NCBI GenBank assembly: GCA_964353135.1
Contig: CAYGTV010000001.1
Location: forward strand, 216,217 to 280,216
DNA: 64,000 nt
Reading direction: 5' to 3'
From: an uncultured Candidatus Saccharibacteria bacterium
GTDB taxonomy: Bacteria > Patescibacteriota > Minisyncoccia > Phycocordibacterales > UBA918
Positions 490-56,830 of this stretch are shown here, in pieces (the first letter of the stretch is position 1; each line of letters opens with the position of its first letter). Both the position numbers and the translations under genes were made by a program. The notes beneath the pieces were generated by a model. It ran no database searches. It was not told the DNA's origin and saw only the letters and a list, made by a program, of their open reading frames with translations.

Positions 490-1251
490 ATGGCACTTGA
501 TAAAAAACGGCGAACGCCGAGCAACAAAACTATTGGTAAGCGAAAACAGACTGAACAGCATCAGCGGATTGTAAGCGAACTCCTGGATCCTGAAAGCACT
601 CAAGGTGACGCAGTGCAGTCATGGCGAGTATTTCGTATCATGTCTGAATTTGTACAAGGGTTTGAATTGCTGCGGGACCACGGTAAGGCAGCCACGTTTT
701 GGGGAAGTGCCAGATTAACTCCTGACAACACCTACTACAAGCAAGCTGAAGAGCTGGCCGCAAAACTAGCAAAAGACGGTTTTTCTATCATTTCAGGCGG
801 TGGGCCGGGAATTATGGAAGCGTCTAACGTGGGTGCATTCAAAGTTGGTGGTCGATCGGTTGGACTCAATATCCAGCTGCCGTTTGAACAAAAACTTAAT
901 CCGTACACTAACGAGTCCCTCAACTTTGATTTTTTCTTCTCGCGCAAGGTGATGCTTACTTTTGCTTCAGAAGTATATGTCTATTTCCCGGGTGGATTTG
1001 GTACCCTCGATGAATTTTTCGAGATCGTGACCCTGATTCAGACTAAAAAAATCGAACCAATACCGGTTGTGCTCTACGGCAAAGAATTCTGGGAGCCATT
1101 CCTAAAAGTGTTTAAAGAAGACTTGCTAGAAAAACACGCAACGATCAGCCCTGAAGATATGGATATATTCCACTTAGTTGACAGTGTCGACGAGGCGATG
1201 AAGTACATCACTAAAGAAGTGAAAAAAATTGGTAACGTACAACAGGTCTAA
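490..1251 (+). CDS. LOG family protein (TIGR00730 Rossmann-fold nucleotide-binding; cytokinin riboside 5'-monophosphate phosphoribohydrolase-like)
   Basis: GGGPGIMEA and PGGFGTLDEFFE signature motifs of LOG family. Confidence 0.85.
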   Translation: MALDKKRRTPSNKTIGKRKQTEQHQRIVSELLDPESTQGDAVQSWRVFRIMSEFVQGFELLRDHGKAATFWGSARLTPDNTYYKQAEELAAKLAKDGFSIISGGGPGIMEASNVGAFKVGGRSVGLNIQLPFEQKLNPYTNESLNFDFFFSRKVMLTFASEVYVYFPGGFGTLDEFFEIVTLIQTKKIEPIPVVLYGKEFWEPFLKVFKEDLLEKHATISPEDMDIFHLVDSVDEAMKYITKEVKKIGNVQQV

Positions 1252-39689: not shown

Positions 39690-41045
39690 CTATTCAGCCG
39701 CTTCAACAATTTCAATTACTGTGATCTCGTCGGGGTTTTCAGGGAAGGTTCGCTGCCAGAAAGGGGTGACTTGAACTCGGGCGCGTTCGATACCTGGGTA
39801 GGCTGTAATAGCGTTAGAAATAGCTGTTTTTGGCAGTCCAGCGAGGTCTTTTTTAAGTTTTTCTGCATCATATTCCCAAATTAGTCGTGGTTTTCCAGTT
39901 AGGTTGAAAGTCAAAGAGTCAGCGTTTGCGATCACGCTATTACTAGTTGTGGCTGACGCGTACCTAAACGTTAACTGCGAAGGGTCGTCGACGCGTACCG
40001 GTCCACCTTCATAGGTAGCAACAGCTTCTTTGGCGATAAAGGTTCCAAAATCATCAGCTTTAAATAAAGGGATCTGTAGGACGGCTTGTTCGCGAATTGT
40101 TACTAGGTCCTGACCGTACTCAATGGCTGGTAGCTGATTATATGTGATTGCCACTGCTCCTGGAAAGGCAATCATGCCAGCTGGCTTGTTTGAATCGATC
40201 TTTTCTAGTAGTGCGTTACGTAGTTCAATTTGGATTGCTTGACGGGCTGTGTTTAGTTCACCTTCGTCGATCTGGAACTGAGGACCATCAAATCCGCCAG
40301 TCAGTGGAGCCGGGTTAGTAGCGGAAATAGACCTAAAGAGATCCATGAATCCGCCTTCTTCGAATCCTGGTATATCAAATCTGGTACCGGCTTGGAGGTT
40401 GTACTCTTCCCCGATCTCATCAGCAAATACTTCTGCCTGTATGGTGCCAGGATTACCATCGATCGCACCTGGAACAACGACAGATTCTTGGATTCGGTAC
40501 ACCAACCCACCTGGTGAGCGGAAACGGGTGTTCTTAATTAGTCGCTCTGCCCCTGGAGTACTTTTACTGATTTCAATGACGCCGGTTGCTTGTTCTTCGA
40601 TATTGATTGAGCCGGATGCCTGAACCTGGCTCTCTTTGGTCTCTTCTAGTGTCATAATCTCGTAGCTGAGCACACCGTCTGCTGGGGTCGCTACAGCTGT
40701 AAATTCAGCGTTGATATTTGGATCTCTAAACTCAGGATAGATCGTGAGCTCTGTCTTGCCAAGTAGACTACTGAGCAACGCTGCCGCACCAACTACAACC
40801 ACAAAAAATACAATGGCCAGCACCATTCTATTGCGCTCTTTTTTGGTGCCATCTTGAATAACAATTTGAGGACTTTCGTCACGCGGACGCATTGCCGGCC
40901 TAGGACGAAGCGACACATCATCAGAGCTGATCTCAATGTCACTCTCGACATCAGGACTGATAACATTACTCTTTTGAATAGGACGGCGTTTAGGACGTGC
41001 TTGTCCAGCTGGGCGAATATCCTGTAGGTTCCATTTTTGCGACAT
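39690..41045 (-). CDS. bitopic membrane protein, hypothetical (basic/Pro-rich cytoplasmic N-terminus, single TM, large extracytoplasmic domain)
   Basis: 451 aa; TM segment LAIVFFVVVVGAAALLSSLL; no recognised motif. Confidence 0.55.
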   Translation of the reverse strand: MSQKWNLQDIRPAGQARPKRRPIQKSNVISPDVESDIEISSDDVSLRPRPAMRPRDESPQIVIQDGTKKERNRMVLAIVFFVVVVGAAALLSSLLGKTELTIYPEFRDPNINAEFTAVATPADGVLSYEIMTLEETKESQVQASGSINIEEQATGVIEISKSTPGAERLIKNTRFRSPGGLVYRIQESVVVPGAIDGNPGTIQAEVFADEIGEEYNLQAGTRFDIPGFEEGGFMDLFRSISATNPAPLTGGFDGPQFQIDEGELNTARQAIQIELRNALLEKIDSNKPAGMIAFPGAVAITYNQLPAIEYGQDLVTIREQAVLQIPLFKADDFGTFIAKEAVATYEGGPVRVDDPSQLTFRYASATTSNSVIANADSLTFNLTGKPRLIWEYDAEKLKKDLAGLPKTAISNAITAYPGIERARVQVTPFWQRTFPENPDEITVIEIVEAAE

Positions 41046-41063: not shown

Positions 41064-42236
41064 TTATAAGTACTCAAAAAAAGCTCGGTCTGCCTTTGTG
41101 TGGAAAAAGCGGCTAGCGATTGCGAGCGGTACATCATGATTTTTTGGGGTTTGTGGGTCAGGGTTTAGCAAATCTGGGGTTGTGACTGTTACCAAAACAT
41201 TTCCCTTGCTGGCTTCTTTTCCGGCTGCATCAATGATAGGTGCAAAAAAATCGGCTAGACCGGCGTCCGCTTCTAGGTAGACATGTTTTGGAATAGTGAG
41301 CCGGTCACCGGTTTCTTTGAATAGTTCAACTACGTGTGCTTGGTATGCTTCTAGAGTTGCCTTAATATCATCGTGTAATTCTTCTTGAGTGTGTAATGTG
41401 CGCATACTCGTAAATGCATCATGTAGTGGTAGTTTGGTTGCCTTTGCGATCTCTCGAGCTATAGATGCCCGACCAAAAGCGACATGTGTGCTGTACTGGA
41501 GTGCATTGTGTCTAACGATTCCTAGTTCTGTCGCCTCGTTTGTAATATCGACTAAACAGAAATCAACCCCTGTTGGCTGTAGCGCATCGGTCACATAATA
41601 ATTAGCCATCATAAAGGACGTAATTTCGAGATCAGCAGCAGGAACCAGCTTTTGTTGCATGTCGGTAAGACTTGCAACAATCTCTTCCCTAATCAGGGTG
41701 CTGACATGTGTGACACTGAGGTGTTGAGCGGTCTGTTTGTTAGGGGTTGCTACCCGGTATCCATTGGCGTGTGTATCGAGAATCGTTCGACTGGTTTCTT
41801 GCACACCCAGGTCCTTGAGTGGATGCTTCTCTTCAAATTCATCCATTGCTTGGTCTGCCGCAGTGGTGGCTAGTTGCTTGAGTAGCTCTTGGGTAATAAC
41901 AAACGGTTCATCCTTTTCGAATTTCACTGTCCTAGCAACTGTGTATGACCAGGGTGCACTGATGGTGGCCTGTACAGTGGTAATCTTGGCCCGTTTGTTG
42001 TGAGCTGCCAAAGCAGAACGTCCTTCCCCTTCAAAGGCCATCATGACGTTCATGATGGCTGTAACCACTGCTTTACTACTCTCTCCAACTGATTCGGTGA
42101 CCTTGAGTGGAGTGTGTTCTCGGTGTGTCCAAATCGGTCCGTCTCCTGGTGTAGGTGCAACAATAGCCAGACCGACACTGCCAGAACCAACGTCAATCAA
42201 AAGAGCATATCCACTACTGGATTTCCGAGAAAACAT
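41064..42236 (-). CDS. actin-like ATPase fold protein (FtsA/PilM/Ppx-GppA superfamily), hypothetical
   Basis: N-terminal LLIDVGSGSVGLAIV phosphate-1-like motif and later VDITNEATE...VAFGRASIAREIA resembling FtsA/PilM phosphate-2/adenosine motifs. Confidence 0.6.
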   Translation of the reverse strand: MFSRKSSSGYALLIDVGSGSVGLAIVAPTPGDGPIWTHREHTPLKVTESVGESSKAVVTAIMNVMMAFEGEGRSALAAHNKRAKITTVQATISAPWSYTVARTVKFEKDEPFVITQELLKQLATTAADQAMDEFEEKHPLKDLGVQETSRTILDTHANGYRVATPNKQTAQHLSVTHVSTLIREEIVASLTDMQQKLVPAADLEITSFMMANYYVTDALQPTGVDFCLVDITNEATELGIVRHNALQYSTHVAFGRASIAREIAKATKLPLHDAFTSMRTLHTQEELHDDIKATLEAYQAHVVELFKETGDRLTIPKHVYLEADAGLADFFAPIIDAAGKEASKGNVLVTVTTPDLLNPDPQTPKNHDVPLAIASRFFHTKADRAFFEYL

Positions 42237-46347: not shown

Positions 46348-47672
46348 ACGGATCGGTAGAAACCAGTAGTTAGGCTATTTGGGTCAAAAAGAGTCTGAAT
46401 CATTGTGTGCACCTGGTCAGCTGTAACTTTTTCAATATTCTTTTGCATGTTTGTGAATTGGTCGAGGGCATTGCATGCGACGTACTCTGTCAGTTCGGCT
46501 GCAACTCCAAGTGACGTAGAGCGACTAAAGGCTTTTTCGGTTACCAGCTTTACTTGTTCTTTTTTTAGAAGTTTTGCAATCTGTTTGACGTCGATGGTTT
46601 TCAGCTCTTGTTTGATTAGGTCGATCACTTTTTCATGAGTCACGCCTGCTGCCAGTCGTATAAAAAGCATACCCGCATTCCTGTGTGCAGTTGGAAACAA
46701 AATGCTATCAAGGCTGCTGACCAAACCATTGTCTACTAGCTTTGTGTGCAAAATACTTTCAGGTCCGTCTGCAATGACTTTGAGCGCTAGGTCAGCTGTG
46801 TACCAGTCTTGCTCGGGGAAAGCAGCACATACAAACCCAAACCCAAGAATGTTCGTTGTGCCTGGTCTCGTGATCGTTACGCTCCTAGGGCCCGTTATTG
46901 CCGGTTCTCGGGCGGTCTCGCGGTGTATGTTTGCTACTTTGTTTTTCTTTGCACCAAACATTTTATCGGCGTGCAATAGCGCTTCTTCTGCCGATAGGTC
47001 ACCTATAAGCATCAGGGTAGCGTTGTTTGGTTGGTAGTACATTTCGTAGAACCTTTGTAACTTGTCTGTAGTGTAATCCTCAATATCTTCACGAAAACCG
47101 ATCACCTCATGGTCGTAGGCATGAGACAAAAAGGTTGCGCTACGCATGGCTACCTCGAGTGCAAAATACGGGTCCCCGTTATACATATCAAATTCACTCA
47201 GAACGTTACCTCGTTCAGGTTGAAATTGTTTGTCATCTAGTACTACATCTTGCATTCGCTCTGCCTCTAGCTTTAGCACCTGTCTTAGATACTTTTTTGG
47301 ATAGGCTAAGTAGTATGTTGTTCGATCGTAGGCCGTATTGGCATTTAGTGTGGCGCCAGTTTCTCGTTCAAACTTCATGACAGAACCAGCTAGAATACCT
47401 TTGCGCAGGTCTTGTTTTGTTGGTTTAAAGAGCATGTGTTCCAGCATGTGGGCTAGACCACTCTCTCCACGCCTCTCGTCTACTGAACCAACTTTGTATG
47501 TAATATTTGATGTAATAACCCCGGTTCCTGCAATTGGGTAATGAACCAAAGTCAGATTATTTTTGTTGTGAGTATAGACAGTAAAAGCCGCATATTCAGT
47601 TTGCTTTGTAAAATTATGATTCGCCATCTTTGCTTGTTTTGACATCGAGAATGAATTGTTTATAGGCATCAA
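46344..47672 (-). CDS. M16 family zinc metallopeptidase (pitrilysin/insulinase-like); true start may be the Met at 47627 or 47645
   Basis: Inverted zinc-binding motif HMLEH (GLAHMLEHMLFKPT) and downstream E. Confidence 0.8.
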   Translation of the reverse strand: MMPINNSFSMSKQAKMANHNFTKQTEYAAFTVYTHNKNNLTLVHYPIAGTGVITSNITYKVGSVDERRGESGLAHMLEHMLFKPTKQDLRKGILAGSVMKFERETGATLNANTAYDRTTYYLAYPKKYLRQVLKLEAERMQDVVLDDKQFQPERGNVLSEFDMYNGDPYFALEVAMRSATFLSHAYDHEVIGFREDIEDYTTDKLQRFYEMYYQPNNATLMLIGDLSAEEALLHADKMFGAKKNKVANIHRETAREPAITGPRSVTITRPGTTNILGFGFVCAAFPEQDWYTADLALKVIADGPESILHTKLVDNGLVSSLDSILFPTAHRNAGMLFIRLAAGVTHEKVIDLIKQELKTIDVKQIAKLLKKEQVKLVTEKAFSRSTSLGVAAELTEYVACNALDQFTNMQKNIEKVTADQVHTMIQTLFDPNSLTTGFYRSV

Positions 47673-48210
47673 ACGTGTGGTTGAACTCGTGCACTATACC
47701 ATCTTTGAGACGGCTGTTGATTGAATTTGAGATAGCTTGGTACGCGTCCAACCGGTCTTCTAATCGTTTGCCAAAATCCTGCATAAACCGATTGTGGTCA
47801 GCGTGATATTCCTCTACTACACTGCGAAAATTATGAGCCTTGTCAGCGGCAGCAATCATGACAGCTTGTTGTGGTCCGTTTTTTATCTGTTTGGCGTATC
47901 GTAGTTTACTTTCGAGCCAATTGTCTGTCCCAGGTCCTGCATGTTTGGGTTCAGTGAGACAAACAACTATTTCAGTGACTGTTTCACCAAAATCAATTGT
48001 CATTTCTGCGGCTGCGTAATCTGTGTCTTCTAAGGTGTCATGTAAAAGTGCAGCGACAAGGGTGTCTTCGTCATTGGTGTAGTCTCTTAAAATGAGCGTC
48101 ACTGCCATTAGGTGCGTCACATAAGGAATCGGAACCGCTCCTTTGCGCATATGATCCTGGTGCAACACTGCGGCTGCTTGGATGGCCTGTTCAACTTTGA
48201 ACGTATACAT
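47614..48210 (-). CDS. HD-domain protein, RelA/SpoT-type (p)ppGpp hydrolase-like small alarmone hydrolase
   Basis: H...HL...ALLHDTLEDT HD motif typical of SpoT hydrolase domain. Confidence 0.65.
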   Translation of the reverse strand: MYTFKVEQAIQAAAVLHQDHMRKGAVPIPYVTHLMAVTLILRDYTNDEDTLVAALLHDTLEDTDYAAAEMTIDFGETVTEIVVCLTEPKHAGPGTDNWLESKLRYAKQIKNGPQQAVMIAAADKAHNFRSVVEEYHADHNRFMQDFGKRLEDRLDAYQAISNSINSRLKDGIVHEFNHTFDAYKQFILDVKTSKDGES

Positions 48211-48217
48211 AGTCCTT

Positions 48218-48553
48218 TTATAATACCACTCCTTCAGCTAATAGGAGCTTCTTTTTGGTACTTACGCCCCCACGGTTGTATCCACCTAGTCCCCCATCAG
48301 TACGTATTACTCGGTGACAAGGCACATCTGGATCATAGTTGGCGGCCATGATGTTCGCCACCGCCCGAGCAGCCTTTGGGTTTCCAGCCGCTATAGCTAC
48401 CTCCTTATAGGTCATGACTGAGCCTTTAGGGATACAAGCGACGACTTGTTTTACAATTGTGGTAAACCTTGTCATATAGCTGAGGTTATTTTGAATGGAG
48501 TCTAATAAAGTCCTCTCTGCTAATTGAGGCGCGAGCAATCGGTCTGTCCTCAC
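48218..48553 (-). CDS. methylated-DNA--protein-cysteine methyltransferase, minimal DNA-binding/catalytic domain only (true start probably Met at 48478)
   Basis: Active-site PCHRVI motif, downstream GGL..Y. Confidence 0.75.
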   Translation of the reverse strand: MRTDRLLAPQLAERTLLDSIQNNLSYMTRFTTIVKQVVACIPKGSVMTYKEVAIAAGNPKAARAVANIMAANYDPDVPCHRVIRTDGGLGGYNRGGVSTKKKLLLAEGVVL

Positions 48554-49159: not shown

Positions 49160-50101
49160 TTATTTCTTATTCTCGTTATGAATCTTGAGTAGCTTTTTCC
49201 CACACGCTTCGCGATACGGACAGAATTCACAAGCTTCACCAATCTCTGGTATTGTTTTTTGATCTAGACAAGCTTTGATTTCAAGCAGGGTTGGTTCAAT
49301 CCAGTCGGTGACTGCCGGCACTTCTACTAATGTCGTTTCAAACTGTAGAGTGTCGCCAAACTCAGGGAGTGATTTGTCAGCGTTGGCATACACGAGGTAT
49401 CCGGTGTCTTCAACCGTAAATCCATTTTGCTCCAGCAGCCATTTGTAGACTCCGAGCTGGCGAGTGTATTGCTGTTCCCACGGACTATCACCTAGTTTAT
49501 CGATACGTGCATCTTTGCTGGTTGATTTGTAGTCTACGATGATGAGGTTTCCGGCTGGATTAACCCAGATGTCGTCTACTCCACCACTGATAACCATGCC
49601 GGTTGGTTGGTGTTTGTGCATGATGGCTACAAATGGATCACGCCAGGTTTCTAGGTCTGCGTGCTGGAACGGCACAGCATTGATGCCATATTGTTCCATT
49701 ATCGGGTGTGATTCTTTGTTTTCACGGTAGATGTCGAACTCTTTTTTAAATAGTTCATCAACCGCGATGTTGAGGTTAAACGACGGAAAACCTGGCCGTT
49801 TAGTTCCTAGAACGTTATCTAACCAAAAACACCGGGGACACTCAAAGAAAAAGTCAATCTTACTACGCGATAACTTCCATTTTGGTCCACCATAGTTCCA
49901 TTCTGCGCTGCGGTTCGGGTTGTATTTGTAGGTGTATCCTGCCATATATGTGTAGTATAGCAGAAACTGGTAGTTGATTGCGGTATCAGCTGCTAGAATG
50001 ATTCTCATGAAAAGCTCACAACAAGCCTGGGAGGCAGAGTACTCCAGTAAACGACTCATGACAGGCCAAAAGCCGGCTAAATCATTTCTGAACTGGATCA
50101 A
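49160..50101 (-). CDS. PD-(D/E)xK nuclease with Cas4/AddB-like Cys cluster (likely real start Met at 49945)
   Basis: GGVDDIW...IVDYKST (D...D/ExK) core; CPRC near N-terminus and CEFCPYREAC at C-terminus typical of Fe-S Cas4-like nucleases. Confidence 0.65.
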   Translation of the reverse strand: MIQFRNDLAGFWPVMSRLLEYSASQACCELFMRIILAADTAINYQFLLYYTYMAGYTYKYNPNRSAEWNYGGPKWKLSRSKIDFFFECPRCFWLDNVLGTKRPGFPSFNLNIAVDELFKKEFDIYRENKESHPIMEQYGINAVPFQHADLETWRDPFVAIMHKHQPTGMVISGGVDDIWVNPAGNLIIVDYKSTSKDARIDKLGDSPWEQQYTRQLGVYKWLLEQNGFTVEDTGYLVYANADKSLPEFGDTLQFETTLVEVPAVTDWIEPTLLEIKACLDQKTIPEIGEACEFCPYREACGKKLLKIHNENKK

Positions 50102-50711
50102 ACACGTAGTACTAACTAAGGGTTTGCGTGGTCAGACAGAAAAATTGTCTGGGATGTCTGTACTGGACTTGGGTAGTGGTGAAGGTAAAAATGCTCTTTT
50201 CCTTGCTGATATGGGTGCCTCGGTCAGCTGCATTGAGCTGGCTACAAATGCAGTTACTACGACCATACAGCGCGCAAAACAGGAACAGCTCGACAATCGA
50301 ATTTCGGTGACTCATGGATCGATCGGGGTGCCCTACTGGTTTCCAGATGAAGCGTTTGATCTGATACTAGATGTTACTTCCTCTAATTCACTAAGTGAGT
50401 CTGAGCGACAAATCTACCTGTCTGAATCAGCACGAGTGCTGAAACCTGACGGAATGATGTTTGTTCGGGCACTGTGCCGAGATGGAGACAGTAATGCAAA
50501 AATGCTGTTACAGCTACACCCTGGGGTTGAGCATGATACGTACATGCAGCCGGACTGGGGTTTGGTAGAACGAGTCTTTACCGAGTCAGATATACGAGCG
50601 TTATACGAGCAGTATTTTACAATTGAAAAGCTCGTTAAAGAAACACACTATACAACGTTTGGAGACAGAAAGTACAAACGTAATTTTTGGATACTATATT
50701 TAGTTAAATAA
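49974..50711 (+). CDS. class I SAM-dependent methyltransferase (start possibly further downstream)
   Basis: Motif I VLDLGSGEGKNALFLA; no DNA-MTase DPPY/PCQ motifs. Confidence 0.7.
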   Translation: MIAVSAARMILMKSSQQAWEAEYSSKRLMTGQKPAKSFLNWIKHVVLTKGLRGQTEKLSGMSVLDLGSGEGKNALFLADMGASVSCIELATNAVTTTIQRAKQEQLDNRISVTHGSIGVPYWFPDEAFDLILDVTSSNSLSESERQIYLSESARVLKPDGMMFVRALCRDGDSNAKMLLQLHPGVEHDTYMQPDWGLVERVFTESDIRALYEQYFTIEKLVKETHYTTFGDRKYKRNFWILYLVK

Positions 50712-50773: not shown

Positions 50774-51322
50774 TTATTGTGCTGTGAAGGTAGCAAAGAT
50801 CTGGTCGATCTGTACATCACCCGCTGGGTTGAACGCATTGTCACCGTTGTCGCTAAATACAACGACTGCATATTGTTGTCCAACTCGGGTTGAATCCTGG
50901 AGGATGATGTTTTCTGGTACGACTCCGGCAGCAGCACTAAATCGTACTACTCCTTTAATAAACCCTAGTTGACCATTGTTGTAGTCACGAACACCAATCC
51001 ATCCTTCCTCGATTGGGTAGGTTGCTCGTTCAAGAGAAACTGATCGTCCGGCAGCTTGGTCGTTAACTACTACTGATCCGTCACCAACTGGAAGTGTTGG
51101 CGCTACTGTTGGTTCACTTGTGGCCGTATCTTGACCTTCTGCCATTTCTTCCATTTCGCCCTCTTCCATCTCACCTGCTTCAGTATCGTCTTGGGCTCGG
51201 TCGGAAACGTTTGCTTGGTCAGCTGGACCAGAAAATGCCCATACCAACATACCACCGATAAGGAGACCGACTACGAAAGATACGAGTGTCTTTGATCCGT
51301 CTTGTTGTTCTTCTGCTGCCAT
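50774..51322 (-). CDS. hypothetical membrane-anchored/secreted protein with acidic EMEEGEMEE stretch
   Basis: N-terminal signal-anchor LVSFVVGLLIGGMLVWAF. Confidence 0.45.
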   Translation of the reverse strand: MAAEEQQDGSKTLVSFVVGLLIGGMLVWAFSGPADQANVSDRAQDDTEAGEMEEGEMEEMAEGQDTATSEPTVAPTLPVGDGSVVVNDQAAGRSVSLERATYPIEEGWIGVRDYNNGQLGFIKGVVRFSAAAGVVPENIILQDSTRVGQQYAVVVFSDNGDNAFNPAGDVQIDQIFATFTAQ

Positions 51323-51407: not shown

Positions 51408-52250
51408 TTATTCAGTCATTTTGCTCTTGCATAGTTCCCTAGCTTCGTTGAGAACTGATTCATAACGTCGTTTTGGTAGGTGTAGCACTTTTAGAATATG
51501 AGGTTTTGATACTAGATCGCTACACAAAATGATGTCTCTCTCTATGAGAATCCTAGCTTGCTTGGCAGAGAGCTCTTGTAGTACGGTTATCGGATACACC
51601 CCGGCTCGTTGAATACGGTCGTGCAGATTGTCTTTTTTGGGATAATCCCATGATAAAAGTTTTAGTCCAACACAGTTCCCGTAGTCTCTAGCAGCTGATG
51701 TGAATTTTGTATTTGTGATCAACCAAAACTCCTTGATGCCACAAATGTCATCAAAACAAATTTTCTGGTCTTGGAGATCTATCAGTCGCGCATACGAATA
51801 CATTGCAACCTGAAGGTCTGATTTGATTCCAGGACGGGCATGGAATTTTGCTTCGCCAACAAAACTATGGTCAGTTTTATATGCAGAAATATCTATTTCG
51901 TGTTGAGCGCACTTTCCCTGAATGATGCTTCCAGTAGTGGTTGTGTACCCATCAAGAGCAAATAGTCGACAAAGGAATTTTTCAAATGGAAATCCGGTTG
52001 GACCTAGATTAAATAATGCGCGCCGGAGTGAGTAGCGTGCCGCCACAGGAGAGCCACTATGGTGTAGTAACCGAAAAGCATTTCGATAGATTTCCTGCGT
52101 CGATATCCCGTCATGAAGAGATGGTGTCAGTTCTGCTATGACAGTATTAACTTCATCAGGTTGCGCACCAGAACGCCGCAAGGAACGGCGGAGTTTTTCC
52201 AGCTTAAAATATTCTACCGTTCCATCGGCTTTAGTAATCTGAATTGGCAC
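51408..52250 (-). CDS. ATP-cone domain fused to Mrr-like (PD-(D/E)xK) restriction endonuclease domain
   Basis: N-terminal ITKADGTVEYFKLEKLRRSL ATP-cone pattern; C-terminal FEKFL..LDGY...GKCAQHEIDISAYK...VGEAKFH...WLITNTKFTSAARDYG resembles Mrr catalytic domain. Confidence 0.6.
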   Translation of the reverse strand: MPIQITKADGTVEYFKLEKLRRSLRRSGAQPDEVNTVIAELTPSLHDGISTQEIYRNAFRLLHHSGSPVAARYSLRRALFNLGPTGFPFEKFLCRLFALDGYTTTTGSIIQGKCAQHEIDISAYKTDHSFVGEAKFHARPGIKSDLQVAMYSYARLIDLQDQKICFDDICGIKEFWLITNTKFTSAARDYGNCVGLKLLSWDYPKKDNLHDRIQRAGVYPITVLQELSAKQARILIERDIILCSDLVSKPHILKVLHLPKRRYESVLNEARELCKSKMTE

Positions 52251-53315
52251 TTACACGAGTATACCACCACCGATACACAGCGACCCTGCGTATAGTACAC
52301 AGGACTGACCACTGGCTGGTTTTTCGGTACTCTCAGTTGGTTTGAGTCTTATCACCTCTGCGTCTATGGCAGTGACAGTTGCTTTGAGGGGTTGCTGGCG
52401 ATACCTGATTTGAAATTCGACTTCTTCCCCGGCAGTAATTGGTGTCCGTAGTACTACGTTTGTTAGTGTTAGAGCGTCAGTGTCAGCCACCTGTTCTAAC
52501 TCGGGAGCAACTGTTAGGGTGTTATTTTTGATATCACGTGCAATGATAAAAAGTGGTTTTCGGTTTGCATCCTGGTTTGTGATGGTCAGTCCGTGACGCT
52601 GACCAATTGTGTACACTAGTGCACCTTTATGAGTACCAACTACGTTTCCGTCACGATCAAGTACCTCACCAGGAACCAGATCAATGTAGTGAGAGAGAAA
52701 CTCTGGAATATCAACATGTCCAAGGAAGCAGATGCCTTGGCTGTCTCTTTTAGTAGCTACTGGGATTCTAGATACTTCTGCTTCTTCCCGGATTTGTGTT
52801 TTTGGTGTATTTCCAACTGGAAACAAAGTCCGGTCAAGCTGCTCTTGTGACAGAGTCCACAAGAAATAGGTTTGATCCTTGCCAGTGTCTACACCGCGAT
52901 GCATTCCAGCCCCACTGTTACCTTCTAGTCGCTGTGCATAGTGACCGGTTGCAATATAATCCGCACCCTTTTCTAGTGCAAAATCCATAAATCGGCCAAA
53001 TTTGACATGTTGATTACACATAACGTCTGGGTTAGGAGTTCGTCCCGCTCGGTACTCTTGTATGAAAAAATCCGCAACGTCATCACGGTATGCATCCTCT
53101 GCATCACAGGTTAGAAATGGAATTCCCAGGTGAGCAGCAACTCTCATAGCATCAAGCCGCTCCTGCTCCCAGTTGCAGACCATAAAGTCTGGATGCCACA
53201 CCTTTATGAACACTCCAACTACATTGTATCCATCATCAATAAGCCGCTTGGCAGCGACTGAGCTATCGACCCCTCCCGAGAGTCCGACAAAGACTGTGAT
53301 ATCAGCATTATTCAT
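52251..53315 (-). CDS. mnmA: tRNA 2-thiouridine(34) synthase MnmA
   Basis: PP-loop VGLSGGVDSSVAA, catalytic Cys region, 354 aa. Confidence 0.9.
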   Translation of the reverse strand: MNNADITVFVGLSGGVDSSVAAKRLIDDGYNVVGVFIKVWHPDFMVCNWEQERLDAMRVAAHLGIPFLTCDAEDAYRDDVADFFIQEYRAGRTPNPDVMCNQHVKFGRFMDFALEKGADYIATGHYAQRLEGNSGAGMHRGVDTGKDQTYFLWTLSQEQLDRTLFPVGNTPKTQIREEAEVSRIPVATKRDSQGICFLGHVDIPEFLSHYIDLVPGEVLDRDGNVVGTHKGALVYTIGQRHGLTITNQDANRKPLFIIARDIKNNTLTVAPELEQVADTDALTLTNVVLRTPITAGEEVEFQIRYRQQPLKATVTAIDAEVIRLKPTESTEKPASGQSCVLYAGSLCIGGGILV

Positions 53316-54392: not shown

Positions 54393-55778
54393 CTAGAAAG
54401 GTAACTCACCCACCGGCAAATTGCCAGGTGCGTTTTGTCGCTTGGATGCGATTCGGGACAGTCCGGGGGTCAGTACTGAGCTGCCTGGGATATGGTAAAT
54501 AGTTGCTAGTTCCTCAACTGACATGGTTTTTGGTTGGTGGATGTCGTTTACTCGTCCTGTACCAGCCCAATACTTTCGTAGCTTGAAGTGTTCCACCTCC
54601 TCTTTTTTACGGGCGATTTTTTTTGCACCTGTCACGTCCTCGTACCAACTGTTGTCAAAGTCAGTTTTCCAGCGTGGCGCCAAAGAGTTGCGGCCAATGA
54701 CACTATACTGAGTAAACACACCAAAGGTTGGAGCAATCATAAGTGGATTGAACTGCGTTTTGTCGAGAGTTACATACATTGTGCGGATTGCAACGTCATA
54801 TGCAGGTTTGCTGATATTCCTTTCGATGGCAGCAATGGTGTCGCGCTCCCCTCCCGTAAGCATCGGACGGCTCTCTGTTTCTTCAGCTGTGCTCTGACCC
54901 TTATCGTCACGCCCCATCATTTCATTGATAGCTTTCTTTGCATCTTTTTCCCAGGTACCTTGCTCGCGCAGGTATCCATTGGCCAGATTTTCTTTGGCGT
55001 GAGGGGTACACAAAATTTGAATATATACTCGTTCGTGGGGTTTAGCTTTAGATAAAAACTCGATCGTAGCTGACATTGGTTCAAACTTCTCTTCTTCTTT
55101 GATTGGACGATCGTGTCCAAATTCTATGTAGGTTTTGATCGGATAAATGCTGTCCTCTTTTTTGATTACATGGAAGCCCATCATGTCCATCTTTTCAGGG
55201 TCCCATTGTAATTCTGATGCGTAATCTAACAACTCTTCTTCGATTTCTATTCCTGGGTAATTAGCATACAGCTGTGATTCCATGACGTCCTTTAGTTTGC
55301 TTGGTACATTGATGTAAAAACGTACCTCGCCACCAATTGAGGCTAGCTCTAGGCTGATAGGTTGCTTACCTTTGCCGTCTAGATATGCCTGAGATAGGTT
55401 ATCTGGGTTCATGGGAGCAAACACGTAGGTAAAGACACTTTCCATCGCCTCTGGGGATTTCAGGACCTCTGGTGGTAGTTTAATTCGCAAGGTCGTTCGT
55501 CCCATTTTGTAATAGAACATAGTGCGGACAAAATCCATCCAGCGGTCATAGGTCAAATAAAACAGCACCACAGGTAGAAAGAGTGGCAGTAAAAACAGTG
55601 CCAGTGAAATCGCAGGCAAAAACGCAATGTCAGACCCTCGGACAAAAAACCAGTACACTAATGCAATTACTCCAAAACAAAGTGGAATAGCAATTGCAGC
55701 AAAAGCTCCGGTAAAGACATCCTTCATGTGTGTATATTGTAGCATCAGACAAACAAAAACGGCGTGAACTATGTCCAC
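54393..55778 (-). CDS. hypothetical membrane protein (461 aa; N-terminal TM helices, large soluble domain)
   Basis: No recognised motif. Confidence 0.5.
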   Translation of the reverse strand: MDIVHAVFVCLMLQYTHMKDVFTGAFAAIAIPLCFGVIALVYWFFVRGSDIAFLPAISLALFLLPLFLPVVLFYLTYDRWMDFVRTMFYYKMGRTTLRIKLPPEVLKSPEAMESVFTYVFAPMNPDNLSQAYLDGKGKQPISLELASIGGEVRFYINVPSKLKDVMESQLYANYPGIEIEEELLDYASELQWDPEKMDMMGFHVIKKEDSIYPIKTYIEFGHDRPIKEEEKFEPMSATIEFLSKAKPHERVYIQILCTPHAKENLANGYLREQGTWEKDAKKAINEMMGRDDKGQSTAEETESRPMLTGGERDTIAAIERNISKPAYDVAIRTMYVTLDKTQFNPLMIAPTFGVFTQYSVIGRNSLAPRWKTDFDNSWYEDVTGAKKIARKKEEVEHFKLRKYWAGTGRVNDIHQPKTMSVEELATIYHIPGSSVLTPGLSRIASKRQNAPGNLPVGELPF

Positions 55779-55804: not shown

Positions 55805-56830
55805 TTACTCAGCGATGGTGTATGTTCCGTTTGCTAATTTCTTGAACAGATTTCCGTCCTGAAGGTTTACGAGAATAGTGTTGTCTTTCACGTATCGTTC
55901 TTTTCGTACTTTGTCGATGATTTCTTCTCTAGAAAGTGGGCCTTCAGCTTCTAGGATTTCTTTGAGCACTTCTTTGACTACTCCGGCTGTGTATCCCCAT
56001 TCTGAAAGTGCGTACAATCCCCGTCCAACTAGTACAAATCGCGCGTCTTTGATTAGTTCGTTATGAGTGGTCGCGATGTGTGCCTTGTGGTCGAACAGTT
56101 CGTTGATTGTTTGTGCTACTTCTTTGAAGTGCATCGGTGATCCGTGTCGCTTTACCGCTAGGTATGCGTAGTCCCGGATTCCTTTGACTCGGATATTTGG
56201 ACTGTCAGATGGTCCCCAGTCTCCTAGGGGGTTTTGTCCGATTTGCTTTGAAATCTTGAGCCATCGCATCAATACTTCTTCGTTATGCTGCTCAGCAATT
56301 TCTGCTAATTCGGCCTTAAATCGACTAACGATTTCTGATTCACTGACTAGTTCGTCTCGCTTAAGAGATTTTCGAACTGCCCGCAGGGCCTTCTCAACCT
56401 CTTCAACTTTCTTGTGCTCGGTGAACCATCGGTGGGCGTAGTGCGGGTTTTCCTTGCTTCGATAGAAAGGATCACCAACTACTAGTAAGAAATAGAGATG
56501 ATTTCGTACCAGCGGATCAGACGATAGTTCGTCTAGCAGAACATGTTCTGCAATCAAACCGCCTCCTAGCTCATCGATCAGTTTATGCATCTCGATTAGT
56601 AGGTCGTACTGCTTTTTGTATACATCTGACTTTTGGATTGATTGAATCCCGTAGTTTTCAATCTGTCGTACACGCTCGCGGGTAATCCCGTAGCTTTGTC
56701 CGATCGCTTCGAGCGTAAAAGTCTCACCGTCTTTGTTAAGACCGTAGCGTTTTTGTAATACATCACGAGCACGCTCAGGGAGGGCTTCAAGCAATGCGGT
56801 AGTTACTTGTTCTGGTTTAAATGAAATCAT
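55805..56830 (-). CDS. sigma-70 region-4-like HTH domain protein, hypothetical
   Basis: N-terminal LPERARDVLQKRYGL...TLEAIGQSYGITRERVRQIE resembles sigma70 region 4; remainder unassigned. Confidence 0.5.
   Translation of the reverse strand: MISFKPEQVTTALLEALPERARDVLQKRYGLNKDGETFTLEAIGQSYGITRERVRQIENYGIQSIQKSDVYKKQYDLLIEMHKLIDELGGGLIAEHVLLDELSSDPLVRNHLYFLLVVGDPFYRSKENPHYAHRWFTEHKKVEEVEKALRAVRKSLKRDELVSESEIVSRFKAELAEIAEQHNEEVLMRWLKISKQIGQNPLGDWGPSDSPNIRVKGIRDYAYLAVKRHGSPMHFKEVAQTINELFDHKAHIATTHNELIKDARFVLVGRGLYALSEWGYTAGVVKEVLKEILEAEGPLSREEIIDKVRKERYVKDNTILVNLQDGNLFKKLANGTYTIAE

What the first reader, a model, noticed from the sequence alone, without database searches (positions are those of the whole stretch)
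51408..52250. ATP-cone domain fused to an Mrr-type restriction endonuclease domain
The N-terminal 60 residues fit the ATP-cone nucleotide-sensing module (ITKADGTVEYFKLEKLRRSL...). The C-terminal part has the Mrr catalytic layout (LDGY...IDISAYK...VGEAKFH...TNTKFTSAARDYG). An allosteric (d)ATP-sensing domain coupled to a PD-(D/E)xK endonuclease suggests a nucleotide-pool-gated defence or DNA-processing nuclease. It sits near a Cas4-like nuclease, a SAM methyltransferase and MGMT within about 4 kb, a small island of DNA-modification and nuclease genes.
Basis: partly seen in the sequence, partly recalled or inferred. Interest (0 to 1): 0.5.

Follow-up and report, generated by a model that had tools for sequence, protein, structure and literature searches.

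The report
ATP-cone fused to AF1548-type nuclease
This gene encodes a real, strongly conserved three-domain protein: a nucleotide-sensing ATP-cone, an intact restriction-enzyme-like nuclease and a small helical DNA-binding-type domain; it belongs to a widespread but unstudied family that looks like a core cellular enzyme tied to nucleotide turnover, not an anti-phage weapon.

Summary

Nucleotide gating is plausible but untested. The defence or DNA-modification island is not supported: there are no PADLOC hits, no phage or viral copies, and only 2 of 72,556 plasmids carry it. The window is core chromosome. The gene is as conserved as the adjacent mnmA. The methyltransferase is a small-molecule type present in 1 of 18 related loci.

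The fusion is old and fixed: 424 clusters (50% identity) at E≤1e-30, spanning Patescibacteria, Bacteroidota, Chlamydiota, Planctomycetota and others. RefSeq calls it "ATP cone domain-containing protein". I found no functional study.

New lead: outside Patescibacteria it forms an operon with a TTHA0252-type beta-CASP ribonuclease. Some loci add an AMP-phosphorylase-like enzyme and a PRPP synthetase, inside stress islands. The best guess is an ATP/dATP-gated nuclease for nucleic-acid turnover and nucleotide salvage.

The parts
51408..52250 (-). Complete CDS, 280 aa plus stop. GTG start abuts the mnmA stop codon (TAA|GTG), so it is probably co-transcribed and translationally coupled with mnmA.
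   Evidence: An identical protein, P0001, is on record in NCBI/Logan sources.
52017..52244 (-). ATP-cone domain, residues 3-78 (three-strand lid plus four helices). K7, K19 and T51 are equivalent to E. coli NrdA K9, K21 and T55, and Y55 to H59; NrdA R10 is replaced by A8.
51981..52007 (-). Linker motif L82-GPTGFPF-E90 joining the ATP-cone to nuclease helix alpha1. Invariant in the 84 locus-derived members; G83, G86, F89 and E90 are invariant and L82 and P84 at least 90% conserved in the wider 70-sequence set. It ends in the active-site glutamate E90.
   Evidence: It was the single pattern used for the viral scan.
51636..52004 (-). PD-(D/E)xK nuclease core, residues 83-205 (alpha-beta-beta-beta-alpha-beta). 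Catalytic residues: E90, D120 (51891-51893), E133 (51852-51854), K135 (51846-51848). Also invariant: G112, E118, R155, D158, N180 (in the TNT motif) and W201; H137 is at least 90% conserved.
51426..51626 (-). C-terminal helical domain, residues about 209-275 (AF1548-like_C). It resembles Rad51 N-terminal, NusA-AR and PolX helix-hairpin-helix domains and probably binds nucleic acid or a partner protein.
52251..53315 (-). Context only: mnmA (tRNA 2-thiouridylase) immediately upstream, a conserved neighbour across Paceibacteria.

Best explanation
The gene encodes a cellular, chromosomally fixed member of a widespread three-domain family: ATP-cone, AF1548-type PD-(D/E)xK endonuclease, and an HhH-like domain.

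Shown: all three folds, an intact E-D-ExK active site, and conserved ATP-cone nucleotide-contact positions.

Inferred: the ATP-cone binds ATP/dATP (or another adenine nucleotide). As in ribonucleotide reductases and NrdR, it would then change the oligomeric state or conformation. This change would be passed through the conserved GPTGFPFE linker into catalytic helix alpha1, switching the nuclease on or off according to nucleotide or energy status.

The most likely biological role is regulated nucleic-acid turnover feeding nucleotide salvage or catabolism during stress or energy limitation, not restriction of foreign DNA. The substrate (DNA or RNA) is unresolved.
For: - Domains and fold: (AF2 pLDDT 95.2, pTM 0.90).
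- Active site invariant in 70 and in 84 relatives, including both paralogues where the gene is duplicated.
- ATP-cone K7, K19 and T51 conserved and mapped to NrdA K9, K21 and T55.
- ATP-cones act through nucleotide-dependent oligomerisation (bioRxiv 10.1101/2025.03.28.645925).
- Old, fixed architecture: 424 clusters at E<=1e-30, and nearly all of the top 150 are 270-295 aa and align end to end.
- Core-gene behaviour: conserved synteny and 68% median identity against MnmA 65% and YceG 48%. The window is core chromosome. No defence-model hit. No viral or phage copies and almost none on plasmids.
- Functional association: 34 loci in Bacteroidota, Rhodohalobacter and Rhabdochlamydiaceae have the gene directly upstream, on the same strand, of a beta-CASP hydrolase, with most gaps between -4 and +5 bp. 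That hydrolase is closest to ribonuclease TTHA0252 (E=2e-66). The flanks differ between phyla, so the pair is the conserved unit.
- In Pontibacter, Criblamydia and Fluviicola the operon continues with an archaeal-type, AMP-phosphorylase-like thymidine-phosphorylase-family enzyme and a ribose-phosphate diphosphokinase.
- Another lineage has the gene overlapping a PNP_UDP_1 nucleoside phosphorylase gene, next to cytidine deaminase and a NupC-type transporter. Another has HIT and Ham1 nucleotide hydrolases upstream.
- Flavobacterial loci sit among Usp, Hsp20 and a response-regulator/Crp-type regulator.
- CPR bacteria are already proposed to funnel nucleotides into central metabolism through AMP phosphorylase (PMC5113843).
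Against: - No biochemical data exist for any member. Nucleotide binding, gating and substrate are all inferred.
- The beta-CASP/phosphorylase operon is absent from this window and from all the Patescibacteria loci. The salvage context therefore does not come from the organism in question.
- The full four-gene operon was seen in only four of about 56 non-Patescibacteria loci, with partial versions in two more.
- NrdA R10, a phosphate contact, is replaced by Ala/Ser in this family, so ligand specificity may differ from classical ATP-cones.
- The closest structural neighbours after AF1548 are restriction and defence DNases.
- The family is patchy across phyla, which is also typical of accessory genes.
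Confidence: 0.5

Rival explanations
1. DNA repair or recombination nuclease. The AF1548 module (nuclease plus HhH, an arrangement reminiscent of XPF/Mus81-type enzymes) would cut damaged or branched DNA, and the ATP-cone would license cutting according to the dATP/ATP level, that is, replication status.
For: - Repair-type neighbours in several lineages: Cas4-like Fe-S nuclease and Ogt in Paceibacteria; EndoIII and LigD_N; RuvB two genes away; AP endonuclease 2.
Against: - None of these repair neighbours is conserved across lineages, whereas the beta-CASP RNase pairing is.
- The Paceibacteria neighbours could simply reflect inherited synteny.
Confidence: 0.2
2. One reading: a nucleotide-pool-gated anti-phage nuclease (Type IV/Mrr-like or abortive-infection effector) that fires when phage infection disturbs ATP/dATP pools.
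For: - In Planctomycetota the gene borders a strain-variable region with an integrase, an SNF2/NOV_C helicase or a PLD-like gene.
- Patchy distribution across phyla.
- The nearby methyltransferase has a weak PADLOC 'mad2' hit.
Against: - No PADLOC model hits the protein.
- Core-chromosome context and conserved synteny.
- Divergence no faster than MnmA.
- No modification-reader domain and no consistent methyltransferase, cyclase or CRISPR partner.
- Absent from viral contigs and phages, and in only 2 of 72,556 plasmids.
- The methyltransferase is present in 1 of 18 related loci and is a small-molecule type.
- The 'BrxC' neighbour in Planctomycetota is PF11009, which to my knowledge is a thioredoxin-like bacilliredoxin family and not BREX.
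Confidence: 0.12
3. A non-catalytic nucleotide sensor: an NrdR-like DNA-binding regulator that uses a nuclease fold plus HhH only to bind DNA.
For: The ATP-cone plus DNA-binding-domain logic is the same as in NrdR. The gene is small and single, and often lies upstream of metabolic genes.
Against: - E90, D120, E133 and K135, plus E118, are invariant in all 70-84 diverse sequences. This is not expected for a degenerate, binding-only nuclease fold.
- There is no Zn-ribbon or HTH.
Confidence: 0.05

Closest known systems
AF1548 of Archaeoglobus fulgidus (PDB 1Y88; Pfam AF1548-like_C PF22357), a structural-genomics protein of unknown function predicted to be a restriction-endonuclease-like enzyme
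   Different: In the solved chain (184-199 residues) the match to our nuclease begins at chain residue 23, which leaves no room for an ATP-cone. Whether AF1548 has the GPTGFPFE linker could not be seen, because only its residues from 23 on were aligned. Its function is equally unknown.
Mrr / Type IV restriction endonuclease catalytic domain (Pfam Mrr_cat PF04471)
   Same: PD-(D/E)xK fold, the 'FE...G(Y)' first helix, D...ExK, and the 'T-x-x-F-T/S-x-x-A' motif after strand 4. Several family members have Mrr_cat among their Pfam hits on record, some marked weak.
   Different: This protein scores below the Pfam cut-off (18.7 vs 21 bits). It lacks the N-terminal Mrr_N reader domain and has an ATP-cone instead. 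Its genomic behaviour is that of a core gene.
ATP-cone-regulated proteins: class I/III ribonucleotide reductases and the repressor NrdR
   Different: The output domain is a nuclease, not a reductase or a Zn-ribbon DNA binder. The NrdA R10 equivalent is Ala/Ser. There is no link to nrd genes in the window.
Ligand-gated PD-(D/E)xK nucleases of CRISPR type III and CBASS (Can1/Can2, Card1, NucC, Cap4)
   Different: The sensor is an ATP-cone, not CARF or SAVED. There is no cyclase or CRISPR partner, no PADLOC hit, and the context is not a defence island.
Archaeal/CPR nucleotide-catabolic (AMP phosphorylase / pentose-bisphosphate) pathway
   Same: In some lineages the gene is co-operonic with an AMP-phosphorylase-like enzyme (TIGR03327 480-506 bits, full length) and a PRPP synthetase. 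CPR bacteria are known to carry the AMP phosphorylase pathway (PMC5113843).
   Different: The phosphorylase falls under the 'ARCH_P_rylase' model, below the AMP_phos equivalog cut-off of 535 bits. No RuBisCO or ribose-1,5-bisphosphate isomerase was seen in these loci. None of these genes is in the present window.

Membership tests
ATP-cone (PF03477) | Profile match above the curated threshold | tested here: met
   32 bits vs cut-off 25.8, E=1.9e-7, residues 3-78.
ATP-cone (PF03477) | Four-helix cone capped by a three-strand sheet | tested here: met
ATP-cone (PF03477) | Conserved nucleotide-contact residues (E. coli NrdA K9, R10, K21, T55, H59; residue list from my own knowledge of the RNR literature) | tested here: inconclusive
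   K7, K19 and T51 are at least 90% conserved and align to K9, K21 and T55; Y55 aligns to H59; R10 is replaced by A8.
ATP-cone (PF03477) | Binds ATP/dATP and changes quaternary state | not testable with these tools
   Needs ITC/DSF and SEC-MALS.
AF1548-like nuclease module (PDB 1Y88 / PF22357) | Significant sequence and fold similarity over both the nuclease and the C-terminal domain | tested here: met
PD-(D/E)xK nuclease superfamily | Alpha-beta-beta-beta-alpha-beta core with E...D...(D/E)xK | tested here: met
   E90, D120, E133 and K135 invariant in 70 sequences; D120, E133 and K135 present in all 84 locus-derived members. Fold hits to AspBHI, NucS, FokI, Can2 and Hjc.
Mrr / Type IV restriction enzyme (PF04471 plus Mrr_N) | Mrr_cat profile match above threshold | tested here: not met
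   18.7 bits vs cut-off 21, and only residues 4-44 of the excised domain matched. Some homologues have Mrr_cat on record, several marked weak.
Mrr / Type IV restriction enzyme (PF04471 plus Mrr_N) | N-terminal modified-DNA reader domain | tested here: not met
   The N-terminus is an ATP-cone.
Known anti-phage defence systems (PADLOC-DB) | Match to a defence-protein model and location in a defence or mobile island | tested here: not met
   No PADLOC hit; core-chromosome window; conserved synteny; no viral or phage copies.
CARF/SAVED-gated nucleases (Can2, Card1, Cap4, NucC) | CARF or SAVED sensor, and association with a cyclic-oligonucleotide synthase or type III CRISPR | tested here: not met
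   The sensor is an ATP-cone. No such genes were seen in the window or in related loci.
NrdR | N-terminal Zn-ribbon with four Cys preceding the ATP-cone | tested here: not met
   The ATP-cone starts at residue 3 and there is no Cys motif.

The most novel reading that the evidence does not exclude
The ATP-cone nuclease is the adenylate-sensing entry enzyme of an undescribed, energy-status-gated nucleic-acid catabolic module. The module would comprise the ATP-cone PD-(D/E)xK nuclease, a TTHA0252-type beta-CASP RNase, an AMP-phosphorylase-like enzyme and a PRPP synthetase, often inside Usp/Hsp20 stress islands. It would let Bacteroidota, Chlamydiota and genome-reduced Patescibacteria convert their own or scavenged RNA/DNA into bases and phosphoribose when ATP falls. 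This would be the first case of ATP-cone allostery controlling a nuclease.
Probability: 0.25. Interest if true: 0.7.

Novelty: new variant of a known kind. Interest (0 to 1): 0.45.

Why it matters
ATP-cones are textbook allosteric switches, but the functional studies I found concern only ribonucleotide reductases and NrdR. Here the same sensor is permanently fused to an intact nuclease, in hundreds of sequence clusters across several phyla. That suggests a general and unstudied way of tying nucleic-acid cleavage to the ATP/dATP pool.

For Patescibacteria, which depend on salvaged nucleotides, such an enzyme could be central to their physiology. It would also give a function to AF1548, a crystal structure that has been an orphan since 2004.

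The conserved operon with a beta-CASP RNase, an AMP-phosphorylase-like enzyme and a PRPP synthetase makes the idea directly testable in cultured flavobacteria.

Tried and rejected
- NCBIfam and PADLOC scans of the protein gave nothing.
- Rfam and tRNA scans of the window gave nothing.
- Promoter and terminator scans around the gene gave no more sites than shuffled sequence.
- Seven literature searches found no paper describing this fusion or operon: AF1548; ATP-cone with restriction endonuclease, nuclease, Mrr or domain architectures; 'ATP cone domain-containing protein'; and AMP phosphorylase with PRPP synthetase, Usp and MBL. Only the 2007 GOS paper predicts AF1548's catalytic residues.
- The viral-contig scan with the invariant motif gave 15 pattern matches, none a relative.
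- tblastn against phages gave no match.
- A search for a beta-CASP gene in the window found none.
- Single-sequence and profile PDB searches with the ATP-cone alone were topped by designed helical repeats, which are spurious. The natural hits below them are NrdR and RNRs.
- I considered and rejected a CRISPR link for the Cas4-like neighbour (38 bits vs cut-off 65).
- I considered and rejected a BREX link for 'BrxC' in the Planctomycetota loci. PF11009 is, to my knowledge, a bacilliredoxin family.
- Neighbours in the unpaired Bacteroidales and Lentimicrobium loci are unrelated housekeeping genes, read by eye and not profile-tested.

Full report

Yes. The ORF listing gives one ORF at exactly 51408..52250 on the minus strand, 280 aa, with a GTG start. 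The start codon follows the TAA stop of the upstream mnmA gene with no gap.

Pfam places an ATP-cone at residues 3-78 (E=1.9e-7, 32 bits against the curated 25.8). It also places an AF1548-like_C domain at residues 219-273 (E=4.1e-6). The middle part excised on its own reaches Mrr_cat only weakly (18.7 bits against 21).

A direct search of PDB sequences, however, finds the structural-genomics protein AF1548 (1Y88) at E=2e-29 over residues 92-273. The 2007 GOS paper predicted D38, E51 and K53 as AF1548's catalytic residues (PMC1821046). In the alignment these correspond to D120, E133 and K135 here, within "EID...GEAKFH".

**2. Structure**

- The N-terminus matches the ATP-cones of NrdR (10.4 and 9.5) and of class I and III ribonucleotide reductases (about 9-10).
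- The C-terminus matches Rad51-paralogue N-domains, NusA acidic repeats and PolX helix-hairpin-helix regions (about 7).

No solved structure contains the whole three-domain arrangement.

**3. Conservation of functional residues**

In the 70-sequence alignment the invariant columns are G83, G86, F89, E90, G112, E118, D120, E133, K135, R155, D158, N180, W201, P204 and P220. K7, G10, F15, K19, S23, T51 and H137, among others, are at least 90% conserved.

In 84 sequences translated from genome loci, none lacks D120, E133 or K135. AF1548 shares E118, D120, E133, K135, H137, R155, D158, N180, W201 and P204. The active site (E90 in helix alpha1, D120 in strand 2, E133-x-K135 in strand 3) is therefore intact throughout the family. 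This argues for a working enzyme.

A profile of the N-terminal 82 residues finds NrdR and RNR ATP-cones in the PDB. The sensor thus keeps most but not all of the classical nucleotide contacts.

The stretch L82-GPTGFPF-E90 joins the last ATP-cone helix to the catalytic helix. It is invariant in the 84 locus-derived members and nearly so in the wider set. I infer that this stretch is the coupling element.

**4. How common is it?**

- The word-indexed search found 3,894 relatives. The best 120 are 69-100% identical and the named ones are all from Patescibacteria, called "ATPase" or "hypothetical protein".
- The exhaustive search of 1.84 billion representatives found 1,174 clusters at E<=1e-3 and 424 at E<=1e-30. 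Nearly all of the top 150 are 270-295 aa and align end to end.
- The genome scan found 449 species. These include Paceibacteria, many cultured Flavobacteriaceae, other Bacteroidota, Rhodohalobacter and Rhabdochlamydiaceae. Planctomycetota members are called "restriction endonuclease".
- RefSeq names the plasmid-borne copies "ATP cone domain-containing protein".

The fusion is therefore old, fixed and already catalogued. I found no paper on its function.

**5. Is it part of a defence or DNA-modification island?**

The evidence says no.
- The protein hits no PADLOC or NCBIfam model.
- The 64-kb window encodes GluRS, Asn/AspRS, Trp/TyrRS, AlaRS, LeuRS, MurG, FtsW, MraY, a PBP, ScpA, DnaK, DnaJ, RpoA, G6PD, 6PGD, PGI and YchF. 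There are no mobile or restriction genes.
- Across 27 Patescibacteria loci the order LeuRS / sigma-like / 461-aa protein / YceG / MnmA / [gene] / 182-aa protein / Cas4-like is conserved.
- Against the 18 closest loci, the gene's median identity is 68%. That compares with 65% for MnmA, 48% for YceG and 75% for the Cas4-like protein.
- The SAM methyltransferase lies on the opposite strand and is found in only one of those 18 loci. It resembles small-molecule class I methyltransferases (UbiG, TehB and CMAS-like, all below cut-offs), not DNA methyltransferases.
- The Cas4-like protein is a generic Fe-S PD-(D/E)xK nuclease below the cas4 cut-off (38 vs 65 bits). "MGMT" is an Ogt domain with its PCHR active site.
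- No homologue was found on 2.9 million viral contigs or in 50,697 phage genomes, and only two in 72,556 plasmids.
- One observation leans the other way. In Planctomycetota the gene borders a strain-variable segment carrying an integrase, an SNF2/NOV_C helicase or a PLD-like gene.

**6. What do other genomes say about function?**

I clustered the ORFs of 80 genome loci.
- The gene is followed on the same strand by a protein of about 459 aa in 34 loci, and that protein is present in 41. The gaps are mostly -4 to +5 bp.
- That protein has Lactamase_B, Beta-Casp and RMMBL domains. It is closest to Thermus ribonuclease TTHA0252 (E=2e-66); next come a chain its depositors label Cas14, and then CPSF73, Integrator-11 and FttA.
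- The pair occurs in Flavobacteriaceae, Fluviicola, Lewinellaceae, Vicingaceae, Rhodohalobacter and Rhabdochlamydiaceae with different flanks. The pair is therefore the conserved unit.
- In Flavobacteriaceae it sits among two to four universal stress proteins, Hsp20 and a response-regulator/cNMP/Crp regulator. By eye there is also a histidine kinase and a thioredoxin.
- Six flavobacterial loci carry two paralogues (47-50% identical) on either side of the beta-CASP gene, convergent in four loci, and both paralogues keep all key residues.
- In the annotated Pontibacter and Criblamydia plasmids the operon is ATP-cone protein, MBL hydrolase, thymidine-phosphorylase-family protein, ribose-phosphate pyrophosphokinase. 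The same two extra genes follow the pair in two Fluviicola loci.
- The phosphorylase passes the archaeal "ARCH_P_rylase"/PRK04350 models. It aligns full-length to AMP phosphorylase at 480-506 bits, against a cut-off of 535. The kinase is PRK07199-type.
- Other lineages put the gene overlapping a PNP_UDP_1 nucleoside phosphorylase gene, near cytidine deaminase and a NupC-type transporter. Others place it after HIT and Ham1 nucleotide hydrolases, beside EndoIII and LigD_N, or beside RodA and RuvB.
- The recurring theme is nucleotide and nucleoside catabolism or salvage, plus stress.
- None of these partners is in the present window or in the Patescibacteria loci.

**7. Most likely mechanism**

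Shown: the fold, an intact active site, mostly conserved sensor residues, core-gene behaviour, and the operon partners in other phyla.

Inferred: an adenine nucleotide binds the ATP-cone. As in RNRs and NrdR, this would alter oligomerisation (mechanism summarised in bioRxiv 10.1101/2025.03.28.645925) and gate the nuclease. The enzyme would provide regulated nucleic-acid breakdown linked to nucleotide or energy status.

For Patescibacteria this would fit their dependence on salvaged nucleotides and the AMP-phosphorylase route reported for CPR (PMC5113843).

Whether the substrate is DNA or RNA is open. DNA is suggested by the HhH domain and the DNase-like structural neighbours. RNA is suggested by the RNase partner and the mnmA adjacency.

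Rivals:
- A dATP/ATP-licensed repair or recombination nuclease (0.2).
- A non-catalytic regulator (0.05).

**8. Comparison with known systems, and verdict**

The protein is a member of the AF1548-like branch of PD-(D/E)xK nucleases and carries a bona fide ATP-cone. It is not an Mrr-type Type IV enzyme, because it has no reader domain and is below the Mrr_cat threshold. It is not NrdR, because it has no Zn-ribbon. It is not a CARF/SAVED-gated nuclease.

Conceptually it works like a ligand-gated PD-(D/E)xK nuclease with a different sensor. The family is catalogued but functionally blank, so this is an uncharacterised variant of known kinds and not a new discovery of the fusion itself.

Interest is moderate (0.45). 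The beta-CASP / AMP-phosphorylase-like / PRPP-synthetase operon is a concrete and testable lead.

Noticed in passing
L093:1972-6597 (Pontibacter plasmid NZ_CP021236.1); L094:6001-10608 (Criblamydia plasmid NZ_LK031773.1); also L038, L067: Four-gene operon: ATP-cone nuclease, TTHA0252-like beta-CASP hydrolase, archaeal-type AMP-phosphorylase-like 'thymidine phosphorylase family' protein, and PRK07199-type ribose-phosphate diphosphokinase. In Criblamydia it is flanked by phosphoketolase, glycogen phosphorylase and acetate kinase. I found no description of it in the literature.
   Followed up: partly
L043, L044, L055, L060, L065, L071 (Altibacter, Aequorivita, Ulvibacter and other Flavobacteriales/Flavobacteriaceae loci): Two paralogues of the ATP-cone nuclease (47-50% identical) lie on either side of the single beta-CASP gene, convergent in four of the six loci. 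Both keep all catalytic and sensor residues, and one consistently has S instead of T at position 51. This may mean a hetero-oligomer.
   Followed up: partly
L020-L078, Flavobacteriaceae loci: The pair sits in a stress island with 2-4 tandem universal stress proteins, Hsp20 and a response-regulator/cNMP-binding/Crp regulator. By eye there is also a PAS histidine kinase, a thioredoxin, a LOG-family protein and proline biosynthesis genes (ProB/ProC).
   Followed up: partly
window 49160-49948 (-): Cas4-like PD-(D/E)xK nuclease with a C-terminal Cys cluster (CEFCPYREAC). It is conserved downstream of the gene throughout Paceibacteria (median 75% identity) with no CRISPR nearby, and scores below the cas4 equivalog cut-off (38 vs 65 bits). 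The listed 313-aa ORF is over-extended at its TTG start; homologues start at 'MAGYTYKYNPNR'.
   Followed up: partly
window 49974-50711 (+): Class I SAM methyltransferase on the opposite strand, present in only 1 of the 18 closest related loci. It is a small-molecule type by NCBIfam and has a PADLOC 'mad2' hit (E=8.7e-17) covering the methyltransferase domain only. It is probably a recent insertion.
   Followed up: partly
window 55805-56830 (-): 341-aa protein, very conserved (median 82% identity). Its N-terminus matches sigma-70 region 4 (residues about 10-70) and there is a weak RNAP delta-subunit-like match at residues 220-287 (28 bits vs cut-off 42). This is an unusual architecture for a sigma-related protein.
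   Followed up: no
window 54393-55778 (-) and 50774-51322 (-): Two proteins syntenic across the Patescibacteria loci with no Pfam or NCBIfam match: a 461-aa protein with N-terminal membrane helices, and a 182-aa protein with one membrane helix, an acidic low-complexity stretch and a beta-rich C-terminus, directly downstream of the nuclease gene.
   Followed up: no
window 48218-48553 (-) and 47614-48210 (-): A short Ogt protein (the listed ORF is 111 aa; only the C-terminal alkyltransferase domain, PCHR motif intact), followed by a stand-alone HD_4 domain resembling the RelA/SpoT hydrolase half, possibly a small (p)ppGpp hydrolase.
   Followed up: no
window 39690-41045 (-) and 41064-42236 (-): Two adjacent large ORFs (451 and 390 aa) with no Pfam family at E<=1e-5.
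   Followed up: no
L081-L083 (Planctomycetota contigs): The orthologue has a constant left flank (ABC transporter genes). Its right flank differs between strains: an SNF2/NOV_C helicase, a phage-type integrase, or PLD-like and FGE-sulfatase genes. It appears to sit at the edge of an integration hotspot.
   Followed up: no
window 490-1251 (+): LOG/SLOG-family ('lysine decarboxylase-like') protein at the start of the window. A LOG-like gene also recurs near the nuclease/beta-CASP pair in some flavobacterial loci (cluster 33, identified by eye).
   Followed up: no
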